From Octopus vulgaris (taxonomy: Eukaryota), in NCBI GenBank assembly GCA_951406725.2, contig OX597818.1:118420001-118484000 (forward strand): a DNA stretch of 64,000 bases, given 5' to 3'. Each line of letters opens with the position of its first letter. The stretch's first letter is position 1. Under the pieces are notes generated by a model. It did not search any database. It saw only the letters and a list, made by a program, of their open reading frames with translations, and had not been told where the DNA came from. Below, one piece after another: positions 7,735-63,502 of the stretch. The translations under genes and the position numbers were made by a program.

Positions 7735-8284
7735 TACTCAAGGAACAAGGTCCTACATTTTTGGGAAAGGTGCCAGTCAATCAGATCGACACCAGTACGC
7801 AACTGGTACTTAATTTATCGACTCCGAAAGGATGAAAGGCAAAGTTCATCTCGGTGTAATTTGAACTCAGAACATAAAGACAGACGAAATACCGCTAAGC
7901 ATTTCGCCCGGCGTGCTAACTCTTCTTATTTCTTTATTGTCTACAATGGGAAGGACAGAAAAATGGATTAAGTCGATTACATCGACCCCAGTGCGTATCT
8001 GATACTTAATTTATCGACCCCGAAAGGATGAAAGGCAAAGTCGACATCGGTAGAATGTGAAATCAGAAAGTAACGGCAGAGGAAATACCTATTTCTTTAC
8101 TACCCACAAGGGGCTAAACACAGCGGAGACAAACAAGAACAGACAGACAGATTAAGTCGATTACATCGGCCCCAGTGGGTAACTGAGACTTAATTTATCG
8201 ACACCGAAAGCGGAATTTGAACTCAGAAGGTAAAGACAGGCGAAATACCTATTTCTTTATTACCCACAATGGGCTAAACACAGA

Positions 8285-8285
<1 letters not shown>
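7735..8285 (-). mobile_element. Nin/Deu-domain tRNA SINE, tandem partial units
   Basis: Repeated ttaatttatcgaccccgaaaggatgaaaggcaaagtcgac, the reverse complement of the Nin-like domain. Confidence 0.85.
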
Positions 8286-8324
<39 letters not shown>

Positions 8325-15603: not shown

Positions 15604-16185
15604 ACCAGACAGTGGCTCTCATGGCTCCTGATCTTAACCGATTGGAAGATGCCCTGATGCAGTACCAGACATGGCTTTCATGGCTGCTGATCTTAACTAA
15701 TTAGAAGGGTCATCATGTAATTGTTTTGTCTTGGTATAAAAGATGGACTACAGCAAATATTCTGCTCAATACCACAGATTTGCTTGTCAGTTCCTTGACC
15801 TTAACCAGTTGACCATGTCCCTTAGTGGATGACGATATGTGCATCTCTGATCATGAACAGAAGTAGTGGGAGGGCATCGTAGCCGTGTGTTGAAAGGAAT
15901 GTTTGGTGGTTTGGATAATTCACCTTTTGAAACATAGGTGGTTCGTTCAACATCCTTAAACAGTCCTTATTCAGGGACCATTTGAGCGGGATGGGCTACT
16001 CGACCAGAAGAAAATTCTAACTGGACCCCACCTGCAAGGTGATATAAGATCACCATGTCGCGCACATATGGTTGTGATGCATGTGCCTGGTGTACCCTTA
16101 TCAGACGGGTAGGCATGATGGGTATAATGGGCTTCGTATATTTTACACCAGTGTCACTTTGATGTCATGCACTGCTCTCTCGCTC
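15603..16185 (+). mobile_element. About 550-bp (AAT)n-associated non-coding interspersed repeat, copy 1
   Basis: Collinear with 16259-16787 and 42856-43411, flanked by (AAT)n. The first ~45 nt are duplicated. Confidence 0.85.
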
Positions 16186-16258
<73 letters not shown>

Positions 16259-16787
16259 TGTCCTGATGCAGTACAAGGCAGTGGTTCTCATGGCTTCTTA
16301 TCTTAATTGATTGGAGGTGTTATCATTTGCCCTTTTTTGTTTTTGTTGAAAAGATGGGCTACAACAAATATTCTGCTCAATACCACAGATTTGCTTGTCA
16401 GTTGTTTGACCGTAACCAGTTGAGCATGTCCCTTAGTGGCTGACGATATGCGGATCTCTAACCACGAGCAGAGTAGTGGGGGAGAATCATAGCCATGTGT
16501 TGAGAGGGATTCTTGGGGGTTTGAATAATTCACCTTTGGAAACATGGGTCTTTAGTACAACATCCTTCAGCAACCCTTATTTAGGGACCTTTTAAGCGTG
16601 ATGGGCTACTCGACCTGAAGAAAATTCTAACTGGGCCCCACCTGCAATGTCATATGAGATCACTATGTCGTGCACATATGGGTGTGATGCATGTGCACTT
16701 ATTAGACGGGTAGTCCTGATGGGTACACTGGCCTTCCTATATTTTGCCCCAGCGTCCCTTTGATGGCATGCACTTTTTTCTCCCTCG
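16259..16787 (+). mobile_element. (AAT)n-associated repeat, copy 2 (tandem to copy 1)
   Basis: cctgatgcagtac...caaatattctgctcaataccacagatttgcttgtcagtt...ctttgatggcatgcac, between (AAT)n tracts. Confidence 0.85.
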
Positions 16788-16804
16788 ATAATAATAATAA
16801 TAAC

Positions 16805-16884
<80 letters not shown>

Positions 16885-25511: not shown

Positions 25512-26195
25512 GAGTGAGAGGAAGTTGTGGTGAAAGAGTACAGCGAGGTTCACCCCCCACTCCCGCCGGAGCTTCGTGGAGCTTGGGTGTTTTTGCTGAA
25601 TAAACGCTCACAATGCCTGGTCTGAGAATCGAAACCGCGTTCTTACAACCGCGAGTCCACTGCCCTAACCACTGGGCCATTGCGCCTCCACTGTGGTCGA
25701 TGTAATCAACTAGCCCCACCCGGACCTTACTTGTTTTGTGCCATAATTTAAAGCCAATATTAATATGAAACCGTGAAGGAGTCCAAATTCCGCCTAGGTA
25801 TATTTTACCTATTTCTTTACTACCCACAAGGGGCTAAACACTGAGAGGACAAACAAGGACAGACAAACGGATTAAGTCGATTATATCGACCCCAGTGCGT
25901 AACTGGTATTTATTTAAACCACCCCGAAAGGATGAAAGGCAAAGTCGATCTCGGCGGAATTTGAACATAGCGGCAAACAAAATACTGCGAAGCATTTCGC
26001 CCGGCGTGCTAACGTTTCTGCCAGCTCGCCGCCTTTTAAGAGTACAGTGGGGTTCACCACCCTACCCCGTTGGAGCCTCGTGAAGCTCATGTGTTTTTGC
26101 CCAATAAACACTCGCAAAGCCTGGTCTGGGAATCGAAACCGCGTTTTACGACCGCGAGTCCGCTGCCCTAAGCCCTGGGCCATTGCGCCTCCACT
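25512..26195 (-). mobile_element. SINE cluster: two tRNA heads (25512-25692, 26040-26193) around a Nin-type SINE (25805-26035)
   Basis: gtggaggcgcaatggcccag heads and the Nin domain. Flanks 25693-25810 and 26196-26313 are also duplicated. Confidence 0.8.
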
Positions 26196-33742: not shown

Positions 33743-33815
<73 letters not shown>

Positions 33816-33935
33816 GCAAGAAAAATAACTTAGGAACTTGGGTTCAGATTTCTACCAGGATATCTAACAAGATGAGGACACATATATTTTCAATCTAAAT
33901 AATGCAAATAAGATACAGAATTCTACATCTCTAAA
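33645..33935 (+). mobile_element. tRNA-(AAT)n-hammerhead element, degenerate copy lacking the HHR
   Basis: ccaatattgcgaattcaattccagg (B-box remnant), (AAT)n, ttaggaac..ggttc, aacaagatgaggaca..aataatgcaaataa; collinear with 42271-42764. Confidence 0.6.
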
Positions 33936-34135
33936 TATATATATATATATATATATAAGGGCTTAGTAAAATAAATTACTTTGCCACATACTGAACTCAT
34001 TAGAAATAGCAGCTAAAGAAATTTCCTCAGCTATTTCTAATACTTAAAGAAGATCTCTCTCAGATAGTGCTTGCCTAAACCAACTCACAAAGGTATGGGG
34101 GAAAAAACATTAAAAAATCAAGTGCAAAGGTTATT

Positions 34136-39760: not shown

Positions 39761-40330
39761 TATATAGGTGCAGGTATGATTATGTGGTTGTCCAACTCGC
39801 TTTGCAGTCACCTAGATTAGAAGTCGTTCGTACTGCGCGGTTCTAATGGCAGGAGTTTTCTGCTGTAGCTCCAGGTCATCCAGTGCCATGTGAATGAATT
39901 TTGTAGACGGAAACTACTGGGAAAACTGTCGAGAGTATTAATACTTGTGTGTGTGTATGTGTGTGTGTGCGTGCGCACGCGCGTGTGTGTGAATGTGTGG
40001 ATGTGTGTGTATATGTATGTGTGTGTGACAGAGAGAGATAGAGAGAGAGTGAGTGAGTATGTGCGTGTCTGCATACGTATGTGTGATTGTGCGCGCACGT
40101 GTGTTTTTAAACGTACTGTCATCATTCTCGAGTATATTTTATCAGCATAAATACAGGTTTTTGCACGATCGAACCATTATCTGACACCAGTTTCAGTCGT
40201 TAGACCGCGGTCATGCTGGAGCACCACCGCGAACAATTTATAGTCGCATGAATCGACCCCCTGTTTTTTTTTGGTGGGAATTGTTCAACACACCAAGGCA
40301 CATTACGCTCAACATTTATAGAAGTAAGAA

Positions 40331-40700
40331 GGCGGCTAGCTGGCAGAAACGTTAGCGCGCCGGACGAAATGCTTAGCGGTATTTCGTCTGCCGCTACGTT
40401 CTGAGTTCAAATTCTGCCGAGGTTGACTTTGCCTTTCATCCTTTCGGGGTCGATAAATTAAGTACCAGTTACGCACTGGGGTCGATATAATCGACTTAAT
40501 CCATTTGTCTGTCCTTGTTTGACCTCTCTGTGTTTAGCCCCTTGTGGGAAGTAAAGAAATAGGTATGTCGCCTGCCGCTACGTTCTGAGTTCGAATTTCG
40601 CTGAATTAGATTTTATCTTTCATCCTTTCGGTGCCGAAAAATTAAGTACCAGCTGCGTACTCCACTCAAATTTCGTGCCTTGTGCCTACAGCAGAAAATA
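40331..40700 (+). mobile_element. Nin/Deu-domain tRNA SINE with internal duplication
   Basis: ggcggctagctggcagaaacgttagc...gactttgcctttcatcctttcggggtcgataaattaagtaccag, with the body repeated. Confidence 0.9.
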
Positions 40701-41477
40701 ATATTATAGAAGTAATACATCCTTATACTCTTACAACTACGTTTAACGTTATGATATGTGACATCACGCCATTATATCATACAAAGGAAAACATTGTAGT
40801 TTTATTCAGGTTGTCATAAAATCAACAGCATATTACACATATTTCTTTTTATTTATTTAAATATATTTTAGCTGGCAAATATATGATTCAAAACCGTTTT
40901 ACTGGATTATGGTATTGCTATATTTAGAAGCTAAAACATATTTCGAGTAAAAGGCAAAATAAAACAGCATTCAAGTATAATATAAGCGTTTTATTACTAT
41001 TTTTTATACTTTTACGCAAATGCATGCAGATTGCATATCCAAGCGAAAATAAATTTACATAGCTTTGGAAATTACAGAGATCAATATAAATAAAACTGGA
41101 TGTCAACTATAATAAACATAAATGGAGAGTAATATTAATTCATACTAACATATGCATTGAATTCAAGAAAAACAGTGCAAACAAATTGATCGATCTCTGT
41201 TCGAAAGTGTAATGAAAAAAGAAAGCAGATGTTGACGGAATTTGTATTCAAAATATTGGCGTACAAAAATGTCGCATACAAATATTATACAGCATACTAC
41301 TGTTTCAGTGGTGGCTGGAGCGGCGTCGGCGGTGGTGGCGGTGGCGGCAGTGGTGGTTTCGGCAGCCGTGGTGGTTTCGGAGGCCGTGGTGGTTTCGGCG
41401 TTCGTGAGGTCGATGGATGCATTGATGGTGATGTCGGTGATGATGATCAAAATAATCATGATCATGATTATATTTAT

Positions 41478-41629
41478 ATTATTTACATTATTTACATCAT
41501 TTTCATTTGACGGATATTTGTCTTCATCTTGGTTTTTACACAATGTTTCGGCTGATATACCCTCCTGCCTTTGTCATTTGTCTTGGGGAAGTTTCGAACC
41601 TGGGTTCTCATTCCTAAGATATCTTTCGA

Positions 41630-41662
<33 letters not shown>

Positions 41663-41668
41663 CATTAC

Positions 41669-41742
<74 letters not shown>

Positions 41743-41858
41743 TCACTTCCGGGAATCGAACTCCGACTCTTGGGGTTAGTAGCCCGCGCTCTTAACCACT
41801 ACGCCATATGCCCATATGCCCGTAGTACATAATTCCGTATTTCTGAAATATAGAACTG
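41478..41858 (-). mobile_element. tRNA-(AAT)n-hammerhead element, copy with full head and inverted 3'-end fragment
   Basis: Head tggcgtagtggttaagagcgcgggctactaacccc...gttcgattcccgg (41739-41812), (AAT)n, degenerate HHR (about 41537-41582). 41825-41858 is the family's 3' terminus in the opposite orientation. Confidence 0.8.
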
Positions 41859-42270
41859 CATCATGATAGTGTTGTATTAAAATTAATCTGTATACGTATA
41901 GATCACAGCAAGTACATCTTGCAGAATTAGTTCCATACTAATAGAACTGCATAAATTTCATGTTACGTATCTCTAGGGATGTGACAAAGTTACGGCCCAG
42001 AAACAGCTGTGTAAAATCTCCAAGTATTTCGGAGCATTCGTGCAGCAGATTTTGACACTCAGTTTTGCTAAACTTCATAACCTGTACAAAACTAGATATT
42101 TTAATGCTCATGCTGATGGAAAATTTATCACTTTTTGATTTCATTTGGTGAATTCTATTCATAAGCATTTAAATTAAGAGTATTTCTTAAGCCATTAGCC
42201 TCACATTTCAACAGCTTAAGTGTTGTACTAATCTCATGATAATTTTCAAAAATAGTACAACATTTTTTAC

Positions 42271-42594
42271 ACAGTTCTATATTTAAGATATGAGGAATTA
42301 TGTACATTATTTATATTATTTACATTTGACGGATATTTGCCTTCATCTTGTTTGTTGTTAACACAACGTTTCGGCTGATATAACCTTCAGCCTTCATCAG
42401 GTGTCTTGGGGAAATTTCGAACCTGGGTTCTCATTCCTAAGGTATTTTTCGTTGATCTTCTTGTTCTTGTTCTTGTTCTTCTTCTTCTTCTTCTTCTTCT
42501 TCTTCTTCTTCTTCTTCTTCTTCTTCTTCTTCTTCTTCTTCTTCTTCTTCTTGTTTTTCTTCTTGTTTTTCTTCTTCTTGTTCCTTTTCTTCTT

Positions 42595-42656
<62 letters not shown>

Positions 42657-42657
42657 G

Positions 42658-42709
<52 letters not shown>

Positions 42710-42795
42710 TCGCGGCCTGGAATCGAACTCTGAATCTTGGAGTTAATAGCGCACACTACTAACCCCAATATTCTGAGTTCGATTCCAGGCCGCGA

Positions 42796-42800
<5 letters not shown>
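42271..42800 (-). mobile_element. tRNA-(AAT)n/(AAG)n-hammerhead element with head-to-head inverted partial copy
   Basis: Head 42706-42764, microsatellite spacer, intact HHR 42360-42405, tail to 42271. Plus-strand head copy at 42756-42800 followed by (AAT)n. Confidence 0.85.
42360..42405 (-). ncRNA. Minimal type I hammerhead ribozyme, intact canonical core
   Basis: GACAC-CTGATGA-A-GGCTGA aggttata TCAGCC-GAAA-CG-TT/GTGTT: 5-bp stem I, 6-bp stem II, palindromic AACGTT. Confidence 0.85.
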
Positions 42801-42847
<47 letters not shown>

Positions 42848-42855
42848 CATAATAA

Positions 42856-43411
42856 ATGCTCTGATGCAGTACCAAACAGTGGCTCTCATGGCTTCTGATC
42901 TTAACTGATTGGAGGTGTTATCATTTGCCCTCTTTTGTTTTTGTTGAAAAGATGGGCTACAACAAATATTCTGCTCAATACCACAGATTTGCTTGTCAGT
43001 TGTTTGACTTTAACCAGTTGAGCATGTCCCTTAATGGCTGACGATATATGCATCTCTGATCATGAGCAGAAGTAGTGGGGGAGCATCATAGCCGTGTGTT
43101 GAAAGGAATTCTTTGAAGTTTGGATAATTCACCTTTGGAAACATGGGTGGTTCGTTCAACATTCTTAAACAATTCTTATCCAGGGATCTTTTGAGTGAGA
43201 TGGGCTACTCGACCAGAAGAAAATTCTAACTGGACCCCATCTGCAAGGTCATGCGCTGTTTATCTTGATATGAGATCACCATGTGGCGCACATATGGTTG
43301 TGATGCACGACCTAGTGTACCCTTATCAGACGGGTAGTCATGATGGGTATACTGGACTTCGTATATTTGTACCCCAGTGTCACTTTGATGGAATGCACAT
43401 TTATCTAACTC
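42856..43411 (+). mobile_element. (AAT)n-associated repeat, copy 3
   Basis: Collinear with 15650-16185 and flanked by AAT repeats. Confidence 0.85.
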
Positions 43412-43948
43412 AATAATAATATTAATACTTATGGTGTAGGTATATATCTACCATAATTCTTACCAACCAACATGACATATTGCACATGGATAATAGAATA
43501 GAATTTATACACCATTAAAAAAGCTTTCTGTTCATAGCACAATATAGCGTGTAATATATTTGTAATAACGAGTTGACATACTGAAAAGACTTAGATACCG
43601 TCATTTAATTTGAACGGATGTTTTTTTTCAAGTTAAGTCATATCACATTCTAAAATCCATGGATGTTGCGAGTAAAAGGTTTCGACATGAAATTCATTAG
43701 AAATATCTGCGTATAGAAATATAAATAAATTTGCCTTCGGGGTAATGACAACAGGGATGTTGAAAATAGAGAATATTTGTGGAGTTAGTCAACTGCATAC
43801 AAATCTAATAAATTCACTGAACAGGTGACATGCATTGGCATGCTATGGAACATCTCACATAACGTTTCAATAATATCGATAAATATGTAATTTTGTGTTA
43901 GTACTATCCTAATGCATGAGATTATCTATCTGTCTATCTGTTTGTTTC

Positions 43949-45944: not shown

Positions 45945-46792
45945 CTACCTATCAGTATGGTTGGATTTCCTTTCTGTATTGTTTTTGGAGAAGTAGCGAG
46001 TTGGACAGAGATGCTCTCCTTTGTGCTCCCCGATGGAATGTGGATTTTTCTGATATTTGAGATAAACATTTGTCTATATGATCCTTTAAGACCCCCACTT
46101 CGACACTGGTTGTTTTGCTGAATGTTGAGTAATAGGGTCCTCTGAAACTCAAGCTGTTACAGTACTAGATCTTTACTCGAGATGACGAAGAGAGGAACTT
46201 TTGTATCATGCATTGCTATCCAGTTCGATGGTTGGTGTAGCTTTCAGTTCCAAAGTTAGGAAGTAGTACTTCCAGATATCCCATATGTATATCACTGCAT
46301 ATACGTCACGCGTTTTCTATAAGGAGTGGCGTTTTAATTCCTTTATCCCCCACCCCGAGACTTCATCTGCTTCACTGAGTCAATCTTCACTGTGTAGCGG
46401 AGCTAGATTGCTTCAAATTCCGCCACCAGTATGATGCTCTTAGGTGACCAGAGTTGGGATCTAATCCAGGCGACTGAGAACGAAAGTTCCCTATAAGAGC
46501 AGCATGATATATTTTTTCCTGATTCTGAATGACCTCAAAATCAATCAAGCTACTCTCGACACAACGTTGCCAACTTGGTAATTGGCACATGGGACGCTTA
46601 GCATTTTGCATGTCAGTTATTTTGCAGTTTCAATATGTCGACAGATTCCTAGATCGCCTCTGATATTGCCGTATCGTCAGCATAGCAGATGTGAGTGGAT
46701 GCCTTTATGATTGAGGGCATATCTGAGAGAGCCACCATAAACAGTAACCCTCCCGGTGCAGTTCCTTGAGGAAGTCCGCAGCCCATTGATAT

Positions 46793-46829
<37 letters not shown>

Positions 46830-47170
46830 CATACCATTTGATACAACTGCCTAACATCTGTCTTTCGAAATGTATCCAAGCACACTTCGTGTTTTCCAGT
46901 GATTCCAAGGTTACACAGCTTGTAATACATCCTCCCTTGACCAACATTGTTAAAGGCCTTGACAAAAGCGAGATAACCCAATTTCCAATTCGGGCGTTTG
47001 AGCGTCTGTTTCAGTATCGCGTCGTGATGCTGTAGTAGCTGTGTGAGGCAGCACCTGCTCGGGCGAAAACCATGTTGTGTGCTTGTGAGCAAGTCACTCT
47101 CTTCTAGGAAAGTGATAACTCTCCTCCTGACAAATGTTCCATGACCTTGCTAACATGTGAAGTCACAGAG
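45945..47170 (-). mobile_element. Degenerate CR1-clade LINE RT fragment (second family)
   Basis: QHGFRPSRCCLTQLL, YLAFVKAFNNV, GLPQGT, CYADDTAI, SFRGPYYS..KDHIDKCLSQISE. Confidence 0.85.
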
Positions 47171-49362: not shown

Positions 49363-49364
<2 letters not shown>

Positions 49365-49469
49365 ACTAGCTTCGGTAGTACATATACTAATATTGAAGCG
49401 ATGCAGAGTAGATTAGCATGGCCCCTGTGCAAGGATGACACGCAAATTCGTGAAGTGTTCCATATTCTT
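49363..49469 (+). pseudogene. U6: Full-length U6 snRNA pseudogene
   Basis: gtactagcttcggtagtacatatactaa...gattagcatggcccctgtgcaaggatgacacgcaaattcgtgaagtgttccatatt. The ACAGAGA box is mutated to GCAGAGT, and the upstream sequence is microsatellite rather than PSE/TATA. Confidence 0.93.
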
Positions 49470-54578: not shown

Positions 54579-54580
54579 AA

Positions 54581-54988
54581 GGCGGTGAACTGGCAGAATG
54601 GTTAGCACGCCGGGCGAAATGCTTAGCGGTATTTCATCTGCCGTTACGTCCTCAGTTCAAATTCCGCCGAGGTTGACTTTGCCTTTCATCCTTTCGAGGT
54701 AGATTAAATAAGTACCAGTTACGCACTGGAGTCGATATAATCGTCTTAATCCATCTCTCTGTCCTTGTATGTCTGCTCTGTGTTTAGCCCTTTGTGGGCA
54801 GTAAAGGTATTTCGTCTGCCGCTACGTTCTGTGTTCAAATTCCGCCGATGTCGACTTTGCCTTTCATCCTTACGGGGTCTATATATTAAATACCAGTTAC
54901 GCACTCCGGTCGATGTAATCGACTTAATCCTTTTGTCCTTGTTTGTCCCCACTATGTTTAGTCCCTTGAGGGCAATAAAGAAATAAGA
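54581..54988 (+). mobile_element. Nin/Deu-domain tRNA SINE with duplicated body
   Basis: ggcggtgaactggcagaatggttagcacgccgggcg..., Nin domain present twice. Confidence 0.9.
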
Positions 54989-57674: not shown

Positions 57675-57818
57675 TATGTGCATTTAGTTGATTTATACAT
57701 TATTTACATTAGTTATATTTGATGCACATTTCTCCCCATCTTAATTGTTGTTAACACAACATTTCGACTGATATACTCGCCAGCCTTCATCAGGTGTCTT
57801 GGGGAAGTTTCAAACCTG
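57675..57818 (-). mobile_element. 5'-truncated copy of the tRNA-hammerhead element; HHR at 57753-57798
   Basis: GACAC-CTGATGA-A-GGCTG gcgagtatat CAGTC-GAAA-TG-TT/GTGTT, plus the family tail. Confidence 0.8.
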
Positions 57819-60138: not shown

Positions 60139-60178
<40 letters not shown>

Positions 60179-60523
60179 TAAGAAAGTTTGTTTGGTAAAG
60201 CACGTGGGTGAATATATAAGAAAATAGTAAAGAGTGAAAAAACGACAGAAGGCTTAAATGTTAAAAAATATATATATTTGCGTCAAAATGTCTGGAGAAT
60301 ATTGGAAAAATTTTTTTCCCTCCTTAAAATGACATAATTTTATAATTTTTAAAGAAATACCGGTTTCGCAGTTAGCTCTTCAAATTTCTTGTGACTTAAT
60401 GTTTATTTTTAATAACGTAATCCTTGTATTTTTGCTACGGAGAGTTCTAAATAAGGGAAAGTAGTGAGTGATTTCTTCCGGTGTAAGGGAGATAATCGCT
60501 TAAAATTTTTTTTTCCTTTAGTG

Positions 60524-61888
60524 TCAATTTCTCTGTATTATTGAGTTCGGATAGTTGAGTCTGGGTTTGTACTTTTCAATGAAGAATGTTTCCTTATTTA
60601 GTCTAATTTGTGATGATGATCCGAAAGCACATTGGTAAAATGGAAAGATTAAAAATTGTGGTTGTAGTTGCTTTGCGCATTTCTCAATGTGTTCACTAAA
60701 AGGTATCATTCTATATTCTGGGAATGCAATCTGTTGTCGATGCAGTGTGCATCTACGTCTGAGTGATAGTCCCGTGGACCCCACGTAGTCTTGGTGGCAG
60801 CCCGAGCATTTAATGACGTAAATTATGTTTTCAGAGGCACAAGTAAAGTTAGATTTGATCTTGAATTTCTGTCCCTCTTTAAAGAAGAATTCTGATCCTT
60901 CTAATAGGTTAGGACATGTTGCACAGTTCGATCTACCACATTTTTTTACTTTTGCATCCGTAATTTTAGAAGACAATTTTGCCATTGTGAGAATCTTTTT
61001 AAGTGATTTAGGCTGTTTGTAGCTTTTAATGATTTGGTGTATGTTTAGAATTTCCTTTAATTTGGGGTTTTTATGAAGTATTGGTAAATTCTGGGTGATG
61101 ATGGTGAAAGCTTCTTTGTTTCTGGGGTTGTATGTAAATATGTAAGGTAGTATTTTCGGGGAAGGTGTGTTGTTGTGTTGAACTTTTCTTAAAGTTTCTA
61201 TGTTGATTTCTGTTGCACGTCTGATCCCATCCTCTATGAGTTGAGTTGGGTAATGTCTGTCAATTAAGGTGTTTTTGAGTTCTTGCAGTCTGAAGTTCCT
61301 GGTGTTTTGTTCTGGCACTATTGTGCATATCCTTCTTGCAAGGTTGAAGGGGATGTTTGTTTTAGTGTGTCTTGGGTGGCATGAACTAAAAAGAAGGTAT
61401 TGTTTGGCGTCTGTGGCTTTGTAGAAAATGTCTGTTTCTATTTTAAGGTTAATTTTTTAAATTAGTATATCCAAGAACGGAAGTTCCTTTTGGTTGTATT
61501 CCATTGTGAACTGTATATTTGGGTTTATGCTGTTCAATAGGTTTTTAAATTTTAAGAGTTTATCTGTGTTTTCATTCCAGAGAATAAAACAATCGTCCAA
61601 GAATCGTTTCCAGTTCTCTTTTATGTATTGAGAGAGGGGGTTTCCAAAGATTGATAAGGATTCCTGGTAAAAGGTTATTTCCATGGATCCCATTGTTAAG
61701 TTTGCAATGACTGGTGCTGCCCTTGTACCCATAGCAATTCCGGATTTTTGACGGTAAAATGTATTGTCAAACATGAAGTGGTTATTGTGTAGGATGAATT
61801 CAATTGATTTAGTAATGAATTCTTTACTGATCCTTTTTGGTATTTCTTCCGGAAATTGGTTTAACCAGAACTGAATTGCTTCCAGTCC
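60524..61888 (-). pseudogene. PLE reverse transcriptase (partial) + GIY-YIG endonuclease ORF, one in-frame TAA at 61457-61459
   Basis: GLEAIQFWL, QKSGIAMGTRAAPVIANL, WKRFLDDCF, LPFLD, YKATD..SSCHP, CGRSNCATC, NIIYVIKCSGCHQDYVGST..LRRR..HR, ETFFI..LN. ORFs 61457-61774 and 60524-61318 share a frame. Confidence 0.95.
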
Positions 61889-62235
61889 AGAAATTCAAGA
61901 TCAAATCTAACTTTACTTGTGCCTCTGAAAACATAACTTATGTCATTAAATGCTCGGGCTGCCACCAAGACTACGTGGGGTCCACGGGACTATCACTCAG
62001 ACGTAGATGCACACTGCATCGACAACAGATTGCATTCCCAGAATATAGAATGATACCTTTTAGTGAACACATTGAGAAAAGCGCAAAGCAACTACAACCA
62101 CAATTTTTAATCTTTCCATTTTACCAATGTGCTTTCGGATCATCATCACAAATTAGACTAAATAAGGAAACATTCTTCATTGAAAAGTACAAACCCAGAC
62201 TCAACTATCCGAACTCAATAATACAGAGAAATTGA
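61888..62235 (+). pseudogene. Inverted duplicate of the GIY-YIG domain
   Basis: Same peptide as the minus-strand copy except I>T and C>S; no real start. Confidence 0.92.
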
Positions 62236-62368
62236 CACTAAAGGAAAAAAAAATTTTAAGCGATTATCTCCCTTACACCGGAAGAAATCACTCACTACTT
62301 TCCCTTATTTAGAACTCTCCGTAGCAAAAATACAAGGATTACGTTATTAAAAATAAACATTAAGTCAC

Positions 62369-62407
62369 AAGAAATTTGAAGAGCTAACTGCGAAACCGGT
62401 ATTTCTT
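62369..62407 (+). ncRNA. Hammerhead-like motif in the PLE 3' UTR/pLTR (mirror copy 60352-60390, minus strand)
   Basis: AAGAAA-t-TTGAAGA-GC taact GC-GAAA-CCGG-TA/TTTCTT: U3.G8, 2-bp stem II, palindromic ACCGGT, about 135 nt after the stop codon. Confidence 0.65.
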
Positions 62408-62540
62408 TAAAAATTATAAAATTATGTCATTTTAAGGAGGGAAAAAATTTTTCCAATATTCTCCAGACATTTTGACGCAAATATATATATTTTTTAACAT
62501 TTAAGCCTTCTGTCGTTTTTTTTTCACTCTTTACTATTTT

Positions 62541-62583
<43 letters not shown>

Positions 62584-63096
62584 ATCTATATCTATCTATC
62601 TATATCCACATCTATCTATCTATATATGTATATATATATTTATATATATATAGACATAGATCCATATTGTGTAAATACATCTACTTTCATAATATACTCC
62701 GTATGAAATCTCGCGATGCACTGATTATATAGGTCATGTCTCTCGTGTCCGGATACTTACGTTGGTAATTTTTTCATCGGAGTTCGTATAATTGATTCAC
62801 GGACAGTCAGTTGAGTTACCCGTAAAGTACGCTTAGCCTCCTATAGAAATTTGTCAACGGATAGATACAAGGTGCCCCAAATTTAACTATTTCAGTGTCA
62901 TCGGGCATGTTTTTTAAACCCCACTTTATATTTTAAAAGGGTATAAATTTCTAATTTTATTTCACAATCTTATAAGTTTTATAAATTCTTATAATTTTAT
63001 TTTCGTCCCTCTTGGATTTCACTTATTAGTCCACGATAGGTTTTTTCAAAAAGTTTGGTTCCAATTATTTTCTCTACTTCCATAGTATTTAAATAT

Positions 63097-63502
63097 ATTT
63101 CTTTATTGCCCACAAGGGGCTAAACATAGAGAGGACAAACAGCGACAGACAAAGGGATTAAGTCGATTACATCGACATCAGTGCGAAACTGGTACTTTTA
63201 TTTATCGACCCCGAAAGGATGAAAGGCAAAGTCGACCACGGCGGAATTTGAACTCAGAACGTAACGACAGACGAAATAGCCATTTCTTTACTATCCACAA
63301 GGGGCTAAACACAGAGTGAAGAAACAAGTACAGGCAAACGGATTAAGTCGATTACATCGACTCCAGTGCGTAATTGGTACTTAATTTATCGACCCCGAAA
63401 GGATGAAAGGCAAAGTCGACCTCGGCGGAATTTGAACTCAGAACGTAGCAGCAGACGAAATACCGCTAAGCATTTCGCCCGGCGCGCTAATGTGTCTACC
63501 AG
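63097..63502 (-). mobile_element. Nin/Deu-domain tRNA SINE with duplicated body
   Basis: Two units of gattaagtcgattacatcgac...ccccgaaaggatgaaaggcaaagtcgac. Confidence 0.9.

What the first reader, a model, noticed from the sequence alone, without database searches (positions are those of the whole stretch)
41825..41858. The element's own 3' terminus is re-attached in inverted orientation at its 5' end
Seen: gtacataattccgtatttctgaaatatagaactg, just past the tRNA head, matches the reverse complement of the tail at 42272-42305. Known: an inverted partial 3' copy at the 5' end is typical of Penelope insertions, and the autonomous PLE at 60212-62549 shows the same geometry. Inference: independent mechanistic evidence that this tRNA-headed element is inserted by PLE machinery.
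Basis: partly seen in the sequence, partly recalled or inferred. Interest (0 to 1): 0.75.

Follow-up and report, generated by a model that had tools for sequence, protein, structure and literature searches.

The report
Penelope tail at inverted insertion end
This 34-base stretch is the one-ended 'tail' of a back-to-back insertion of the end repeat of a Penelope-type jumping gene, a known footprint of that class; the unusual part is that the repeat begins with a tRNA-derived segment that likely acts as its promoter.

Summary
The 34-nt inverted match is real (30/34), but 42272-42305 belongs to the neighbouring copy. The 'tRNA-headed element' runs on the minus strand and is not a separate SINE: it is the pseudo-LTR of a Penelope/Poseidon-type family, whose RT + GIY-YIG ORF starts inside it and ends just before it. 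The 34-mer is the PLE 'tail' (ORF codons 41-51). In 90 heads chosen without regard to flanks, 61 carry an inverted 3'-anchored arm upstream (3 direct; 0 of 71 downstream). The tail sits on exactly one end in 43 of 47 two-armed copies (p=3.7e-8), and 12-14-bp TSDs span both arms (27 of 43; 0.7% in shuffles). PLE insertion is therefore supported, but the predicted absence of TSDs is wrong, and the PLE at 60.2-62.6 kb is a different family. The geometry is published (Adineta Pen2a, Anolis Poseidon). What is unusual: the pLTR starts with a tRNA-Arg-like A/B-box head, where most copies begin, and the ORF has no conserved TTTT, hinting at RNA polymerase III transcription (untested). The scan reached this reading before on other DNA (e1-8669850).

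The parts
41825..41858 (+). 34-nt PLE 'tail' forming the whole inverted arm of copy 1 (ORF codons 41-51 of the partner PLE)
   Evidence: inverted match; one-ended tail; in frame in full-length copies
41814..41824 (-). 5' junction of copy 1: 8-nt duplication of the head start plus half of the native short palindrome that precedes the head
   Evidence: sequence; native context in ORF-linked copies
41740..41813 (-). tRNA-derived head of copy 1 with A-box and B-box motifs; start of the pLTR
   Evidence: family head closest to a genomic tRNA-Arg(TCG), 47 identities over 73 nt, z 8.2; not called by ARAGORN or Rfam
41633..41739 (-). (AAT)n spacer of copy 1
41478..41632 (-). body of copy 1: ORF start (ATG at 41611), decayed hammerhead, tail-less 3' end near 41478
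41859..41870 (+). possible decayed TSD of copy 1 (partner just beyond the tail-less end near 41465-41475); 9 of 12, inconclusive for this copy
   Evidence: 6% of shuffled pairs reach 9/12
42272..42305 (-). tail of copy 2, on its forward arm
42360..42405 (-). minimal type I hammerhead motif of copy 2 (5-bp stem I, 6-bp stem II, loop-less palindromic stem III, predicted cut between 42365 and 42364)
   Evidence: sequence; stem II; only N7 of the core varies across copies; architecture as in PMC4209133
42306..42454 (-). body of copy 2 including ORF start (ATG at 42434)
42455..42764 (-). microsatellite spacer and 5'-truncated head of copy 2
42742..42850 (+). inverted arm of copy 2 (3' part of head plus (AAT)n), followed by an unrelated 580-nt repeat
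60178..62549 (-). comparison element: 5'-truncated young PLE of another family with inverted 3' arm and its own one-ended extension (about 60178-60211); not the partner

Best explanation
The 34-mer is the one-ended 'tail' of a two-armed, TSD-flanked insertion of the pseudo-LTR of a protein-coding Penelope/Poseidon-type retroelement, likely made when the element's enzyme primes reverse transcription from both target strands at two fixed internal RNA sites 34 nt apart. Shown: full-length copies read head-(AAT)n-ATG-hammerhead-tail-ORF (RT, GIY-YIG)-stop-head; short copies are the head-to-tail part alone; inverted arms always end at one of the two fixed 3' sites and have variable inner ends; one TSD spans both arms. 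Inferred: the GIY-YIG domain makes staggered nicks 12-14 nt apart; one cDNA starts at the tail-less site and the other at the tailed site; the longer cDNA runs to the RNA 5' end at the tRNA-derived head, the shorter stops early (here after only 34 nt), and the two are joined through microhomology, sometimes after a short snap-back at the head palindrome. Further inferred, less firmly: the head marks the transcription start, and internal priming in the 5' pLTR turns head-started RNA into SINE-sized copies.
For: Inverted body or tail within 620 nt upstream in 61 of 90 heads; direct in 3 of 90; inverted downstream in 0 of 71 loci with at least 500 nt of flank. Tail on one end only in 43 of 47 two-armed copies with a near-complete 3' end (29 inverted arm, 14 forward arm, 2 both, 2 neither; Fisher p=3.7e-8). 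TSD of at least 10/12 in 27 of the 43 one-tailed copies against 0.7% of shuffled pairs; exact repeats peak at 12-14 nt. Arm lengths run from 27 to 537 nt. 9 of 90 heads continue upstream into a GIY-YIG-type ORF end; 27 of 30 loci picked by that ORF end carry the head right after the stop. RVT_1 above cut-off in 2 of 4 ORF stretches; Atlas look-alikes carry HTH_animal and, in 13-14% of members, GIY-YIG. 8 of 30 loci picked by the ORF 5' part have body and tail running into the ORF, in frame from an ATG in the 4 of 7 where the start motif was found; 49 exact tail-to-ORF junctions exist, 22 of 30 examined have an inverted arm. RNA reads show loose ends at the same two 3' sites and fold-back at the head. 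Published parallels: PMC3846280 (passages), PMC8557442 (passages), PMC11167929 (main text and part of methods).
Against: The TSD of the focal copy itself is weak (9/12; 6% of shuffles) and 16 of 43 copies fall below 10/12. No empty-site allele was examined. Pfam GIY-YIG was not hit for the partner's C-terminal stretch; its identity rests on motifs read by eye and on the Atlas. The 90 heads are the first 90 of 470 exact matches, on three contigs, so they favour well-preserved copies. The priming order and the two-cDNA model are inferred from structure and from an in vitro study of another species. No discrete RNA start or end was seen in three unstranded libraries.
Confidence: 0.88

Rival explanations
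1. A separate tRNA-headed SINE that borrows a PLE's enzyme in trans. [quoted passage not shown]
For: 81 of 90 heads have no ORF upstream and 59 of those 81 begin 12-27 nt upstream of the anchor, that is at the head; A box intact or with one change in most; 54 of 61 forward units lack TTTT; internal priming would tolerate read-through 3' ends (PMC11167929).
Against: Every part of the unit is also part of the autonomous element, in the same order, so no separate master is needed. No diagnostic short-only subfamily was tested. No Pol III transcript was seen (uninformative libraries).
Confidence: 0.35
2. The pile-up of 5' ends at the head is a reverse-transcription stall at the native hairpin and tRNA-like fold; the tRNA segment is a passive insertion and a polymerase II promoter elsewhere in the pLTR drives the element.
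For: A native imperfect palindrome sits exactly there; 8 of 81 short copies show a fold-back of 14 bp or more; palindromes at pLTR 5' ends and TATA/Inr-like motifs are described for Adineta PLEs (PMC3846280). G runs are also scarce in the ORF, so T-run scarcity may be compositional.
Against: No upstream pLTR extends beyond the head into ORF 3' sequence (0 of 8, 0 of 30, though few reach the head start); A and B boxes are kept; no conserved TTTT in the ORF, against 4.8 per kb in the other PLE family.
Confidence: 0.4
3. A miniature DNA transposon with 34-bp terminal inverted repeats and TA target duplication that carries a tRNA-like insert.
For: The end reads like a Tc1/mariner terminus (recalled), and TA follows it in most copies.
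Against: The 34-mer is at both ends in only 2 of 47 copies; duplications are 12-14 bp; the following TA(T) is the element's own ORF sequence; the family encodes RT.
Confidence: 0.01
4. Two independent insertions landed back to back, or a perfect head-to-head dimer decayed afterwards by hairpin deletion.
For: The family is abundant (four pieces in this window); junctions show microhomology, which deletion also gives.
Against: Strong strand and side bias (61 against 3 and 0) and one TSD around both arms exclude independent insertion; a fold-back dimer would carry identical ends, whereas the tail is one-ended. Later deletion may still have shortened some arms.
Confidence: 0.08

Closest known systems
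Pen2a_Av and relatives, Adineta vaga Penelope elements (PMC3846280; passages read)
   Same: ORF between two pLTRs, adjacent inverted pLTR, optional 31-bp tail on one of the inverted pLTRs, pLTR plus tail covers the first codons of the ORF, 8-10-bp TSD around the whole unit, palindromes at the pLTR 5' end, solo pLTRs.
   Different: Its pLTR has TATA/Inr-like motifs and the word tRNA does not occur in the text; here the pLTR begins with a tRNA-derived A/B-box head and an (AAT)n spacer, TSDs are 12-14 bp, and ORF-less inverted pLTR pairs dominate.
Poseidon_Ac of Anolis carolinensis (PMC11167929; main text and part of methods read)
   Same: ORF starts at the hammerhead; tail lies about 110-155 nt into the ORF; two internal RT start sites explain the optional tail; both target strands are cut and extended in vitro.
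   Different: No tRNA-derived head reported in the parts read; here ATG lies upstream of the hammerhead core; no enzyme data for this family.
Sm-alpha SINE-like elements of Schistosoma (described in review PMC6765202; passages read)
   Same: Polymerase III-type promoter followed by a hammerhead in a short repeat.
   Different: Described as tandem non-autonomous repeats with no named PLE ORF; here the unit is the pLTR of an autonomous PLE and inserts as inverted pairs.
TRIMp3 elements Cassandra, Helenus, Ajax (PMC10886601; passages read)
   Same: Small-RNA-derived polymerase III promoter inside a terminal repeat of a retroelement.
   Different: Those are non-autonomous LTR elements, and that paper argues autonomous partners must use polymerase II; here the tRNA segment sits in the repeat of the protein-coding element itself.
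Animal non-LTR retrozymes (10.64898/2026.07.22.740005; abstract, introduction and part of methods read)
   Same: Non-coding hammerhead repeats related to PLE pLTRs.
   Different: Retrozymes are tandem arrays; these are dispersed inverted pairs or monomers with a tRNA head (one short tandem of heads in 90, L111).

Membership tests
EN+ Penelope-like element (C-terminal endonuclease type) | Single ORF with RT followed by a C-terminal GIY-YIG endonuclease | tested here: met
   RVT_1 above cut-off; GIY-YIG-type motifs by eye at the C-terminus; Atlas clusters with HTH_animal and GIY-YIG. Pfam GIY-YIG itself not hit. All copies read are decayed.
EN+ Penelope-like element (C-terminal endonuclease type) | pLTR-ORF-pLTR organisation with the ORF start inside the pLTR | tested here: met
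EN+ Penelope-like element (C-terminal endonuclease type) | Inverted 5'-truncated copy at the 5' end | tested here: met
   61 of 90 heads; 22 of 30 ORF-start loci
EN+ Penelope-like element (C-terminal endonuclease type) | Optional 30-40-bp tail on one end | tested here: met
   43 of 47, p=3.7e-8
EN+ Penelope-like element (C-terminal endonuclease type) | Minimal type I hammerhead motif in the pLTR | tested here: met
   motif and conservation pattern against PMC4209133; Rfam gives no hit; cleavage not tested
Penelope/Poseidon clade specifically | RT phylogeny groups with Penelope/Poseidon rather than Neptune or Nematis | not tested
   no tree built; assignment rests on domain order, ORF-in-pLTR layout and recalled motif resemblance
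SINE2 (tRNA-derived SINE) | tRNA-derived head with A and B boxes | tested here: met
   best of 25 distinct tRNA sequences: Arg(TCG), 47/73; A box. Isotype is tentative: Ala and another Arg score close
SINE2 (tRNA-derived SINE) | Non-autonomous unit distinct from its partner, sharing only the 3' end | tested here: not met
   the whole unit, head included, is part of the autonomous element
SINE2 (tRNA-derived SINE) | Transcribed by RNA polymerase III | tested here: inconclusive
   indirect signs only; unstranded cDNA reads show no discrete start
SINE2 (tRNA-derived SINE) | LINE-type 3' end (poly(A) or simple repeat) and single orientation | tested here: not met
   two fixed 3' ends inside an ORF and inverted arms
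MITE / Tc1-mariner derivative | Same terminal inverted repeat at both ends and TA duplication | tested here: not met
Non-LTR retrozyme | Tandem array of hammerhead units | tested here: not met
   dispersed monomers and inverted pairs; circular RNA not testable here

The most novel reading that the evidence does not exclude
An autonomous Penelope-like retrotransposon has adopted a tRNA-Arg-derived internal promoter and is transcribed full length (about 3 kb) by RNA polymerase III, its ORF purged of oligo-T terminators; internal priming in the 5' pLTR spins off SINE-sized copies that keep both promoter and priming site and can re-amplify. This would be a protein-coding retroelement and its 'SINE' in one sequence.
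Probability: 0.3. Interest if true: 0.8.

Novelty: new variant of a known kind. Interest (0 to 1): 0.5.

Why it matters
The inverted tail itself is textbook PLE geometry, but here it can be counted in hundreds of copies and supports, in vivo, the two-start-site, two-strand priming seen in vitro for Poseidon. It also shows that a repeat that looks like a tRNA SINE is really a PLE pLTR, which matters for repeat annotation in this genome. If the tRNA head is the working promoter, it would give a route from an autonomous element to a SINE-like family and a rare case of polymerase III serving a protein-coding retroelement, which is directly testable.

Tried and rejected
The PLE at 60.2-62.6 kb as partner: rejected (no shared terminal DNA, about 30% protein identity, none of 14 further copies matches head, body, tail or ORF queries). 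MITE reading and chance adjacency: rejected. I first took the second repeat family in the window (40329-40661 and others) to be inverted too; mapping showed direct partial tandems. ARAGORN found no tRNA in the window or in 60 of the 90 head loci; Rfam found neither tRNA nor hammerhead in two copies and only U6 in the window. Folding single strands gave no significant z-scores. The run search listed no holder on record as RNA; three raw RNA runs of one study were laid, were unstranded, and showed no place where many molecules begin or end, which says nothing for or against a polymerase III transcript. The first 5'-end histogram used a reference with a mutated A box and was redone; its ungapped extension under-reads ORF-linked copies. 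A codon-aware control for T-run scarcity was not done, so that point rests on base-level shuffles. No RT tree and no short-versus-long subfamily tree were built. Paper searches listed no title or abstract describing a tRNA-derived promoter in a PLE pLTR; most listed papers were seen as listings only, subscription papers (including the 1994 octopus SINE paper cited in PMC10886601) and Repbase/Dfam were not available, and no supplements were read, so this family may already be deposited under a SINE or Penelope name.

Full report
Observation. The inverted pair 41825-41858 / 42272-42305 is real: 34 nt, 88% complementary. The element reads on the minus strand. Copy 1 runs head 41813->41740, (AAT)n, body ->41478 and lacks the last 34 nt; copy 2 runs head 42764->42705, microsatellite, body, and ends with those 34 nt at 42272. 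Copy 2 has its own inverted arm (42742-42850). The PLE at about 60.2-62.6 kb is real and shows the same layout, with a 764-nt inverted repeat and about 35 extra nt on one arm, but it is a different, younger family (98-99% between the 40 best copies) with no shared terminal DNA and about 30% protein identity to the true partner.

Is the geometry general? A head-internal 41-nt pattern has 470 exact matches in the genome (control 0); I examined the first 90 listed (contigs C1-C3). An inverted body or tail lies within 620 nt upstream in 61 of 90; a direct one in 3 of 90; an inverted one after the 3' end in 0 of 71 loci with enough flank. Arms are anchored at the 3' end and range from 27 to 537 nt, with short microhomologies at many junctions (by eye). 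An unrelated SINE-like family in the same loci has an inverted neighbour in 3 of 42 heads, none abutting; I did not establish whether it is a Nin or CORE SINE.

What the 34-mer is. Among 47 two-armed copies with a near-complete forward 3' end (14 of the 61 were left out for a truncated forward end), the 34-mer is on the inverted arm only in 29, on the forward arm only in 14, on both in 2 and on neither in 2 (Fisher p=3.7e-8). One duplication encloses both arms, so each pair is one event. For copy 1 itself the duplication is weak (9/12, reached by 6% of shuffles).

The element is a pLTR. Nine of the 90 heads continue upstream into the end of a GIY-YIG-type ORF whose stop lies about 30 nt before the head; 27 of 30 loci found with that ORF end carry the head next (one is the query's own locus). 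Upstream the ORF holds RT (RVT_1 above cut-off in 2 of 4 stretches; Atlas look-alikes with HTH_animal and some GIY-YIG; Pfam GIY-YIG not hit). At the other end, 8 of 30 loci found with the ORF 5' part show body and tail running straight into the ORF, in frame from an ATG just after the (AAT)n in the 4 of 7 copies where the start motif was found; the tail is codons 41-51. There are 49 exact tail-to-ORF junctions; 22 of the 30 examined have an inverted arm, and many are internally deleted. The body carries a minimal type I hammerhead whose only variable core position is N7 (75% against 90-98%), matching the description in PMC4209133 (first part read). This is the layout of Adineta Pen2a (PMC3846280, passages) and Anolis Poseidon (PMC11167929, main text), where the tail is the stretch between two internal RT start sites and both target strands are extended.

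Mechanism. Shown: two fixed 3' ends, one per arm; variable inner ends; one TSD. Inferred: staggered nicks 12-14 nt apart, two cDNAs primed from opposite strands at the two sites, joined by microhomology; in copy 1 the tailed cDNA stopped after 34 nt. Some copies show a snap-back at the palindrome before the head (8 of 81 with 14 bp or more). RNA reads from three runs of one study show loose ends at both 3' sites and the fold-back, as expected from read-through of genomic copies.

What is unusual. The pLTR starts with a tRNA-derived segment: best match among 25 distinct genomic tRNA sequences is tRNA-Arg(TCG), 47 of 73 (z 8.2; Ala and another Arg close), with A and B box motifs, though neither ARAGORN nor Rfam calls it. 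Of 81 ORF-less copies, 59 begin at the head, 19 inside it and 3 a little upstream, whereas most copies that pass it run hundreds of bases into the ORF. No upstream pLTR extends past the head (0 of 8; 0 of 30), but only a handful reach the head start, so this is weak. Across 35 ORF alignments (50 kb, not independent) there are 25 TTTT runs, none shared by more than 2 copies, against 69-102 expected; per master this is zero against 3-5 expected (Poisson 0.01-0.05, my hand estimate), while the other PLE family has 4.8 per kb against 2.4 expected (14 loci). G runs are scarce too, and no codon-aware control was done. These signs fit a polymerase III promoter at the head; a stall at the native hairpin fits the 5' pile-up as well. 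The reads were unstranded and showed no discrete start.

Novelty and verdict. The tRNA-headed pLTR was not in any title, abstract or passage I saw, with Repbase, Dfam, subscription papers and supplements unseen. Nearest concepts are Sm-alpha (PMC6765202, passages) and TRIMp3 (PMC10886601, passages). That the host is an octopus is my recollection from its repeats and comes from no call; two octopus repeat papers (PMC13282606, PMC8967140, passages) did not describe this family in the passages shown. New variant of a known kind, interest 0.5.

Noticed in passing
window 40329-40661, 54579-54985, 63096-63502, 7775-8289, 25810-26035: A second abundant SINE-like family forms direct partial tandems with a recurring breakpoint near unit position 50, unlike the inverted pairs of the focal family; its class and mechanism were not worked out.
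   Followed up: partly
window 15646-16859 and 42851-43427: A roughly 580-nt repeat inserted in (AAT)n runs, in tandem at 15.6-16.9 kb; one copy follows the inverted arm of copy 2.
   Followed up: no
window 60178-62549: Young PLE family (98-99% between copies, one 775-codon open stretch in L252) in (TA)n, with its own one-ended extension and a variant minimal hammerhead-like core in the 3' UTR.
   Followed up: partly
window 49363-49469: U6 snRNA gene or pseudogene, 95.9 bits.
   Followed up: no
window 33794-33939 and 57696-57818: Two more decayed fragments of the focal family.
   Followed up: partly
L185-L214: Many copies are pLTR + 35-460 nt of ORF start + jump into a second pLTR, suggesting frequent template switching or internal deletion.
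   Followed up: no
L043, about 60-25 nt upstream of the head: A short piece resembling the ORF 5' region is caught in the junction between the two arms (by eye).
   Followed up: no
L111: Tandem of four heads with short body pieces downstream of the ORF end.
   Followed up: no
window 46649-47149 (minus): LINE-type reverse transcriptase remnant, by eye.
   Followed up: no
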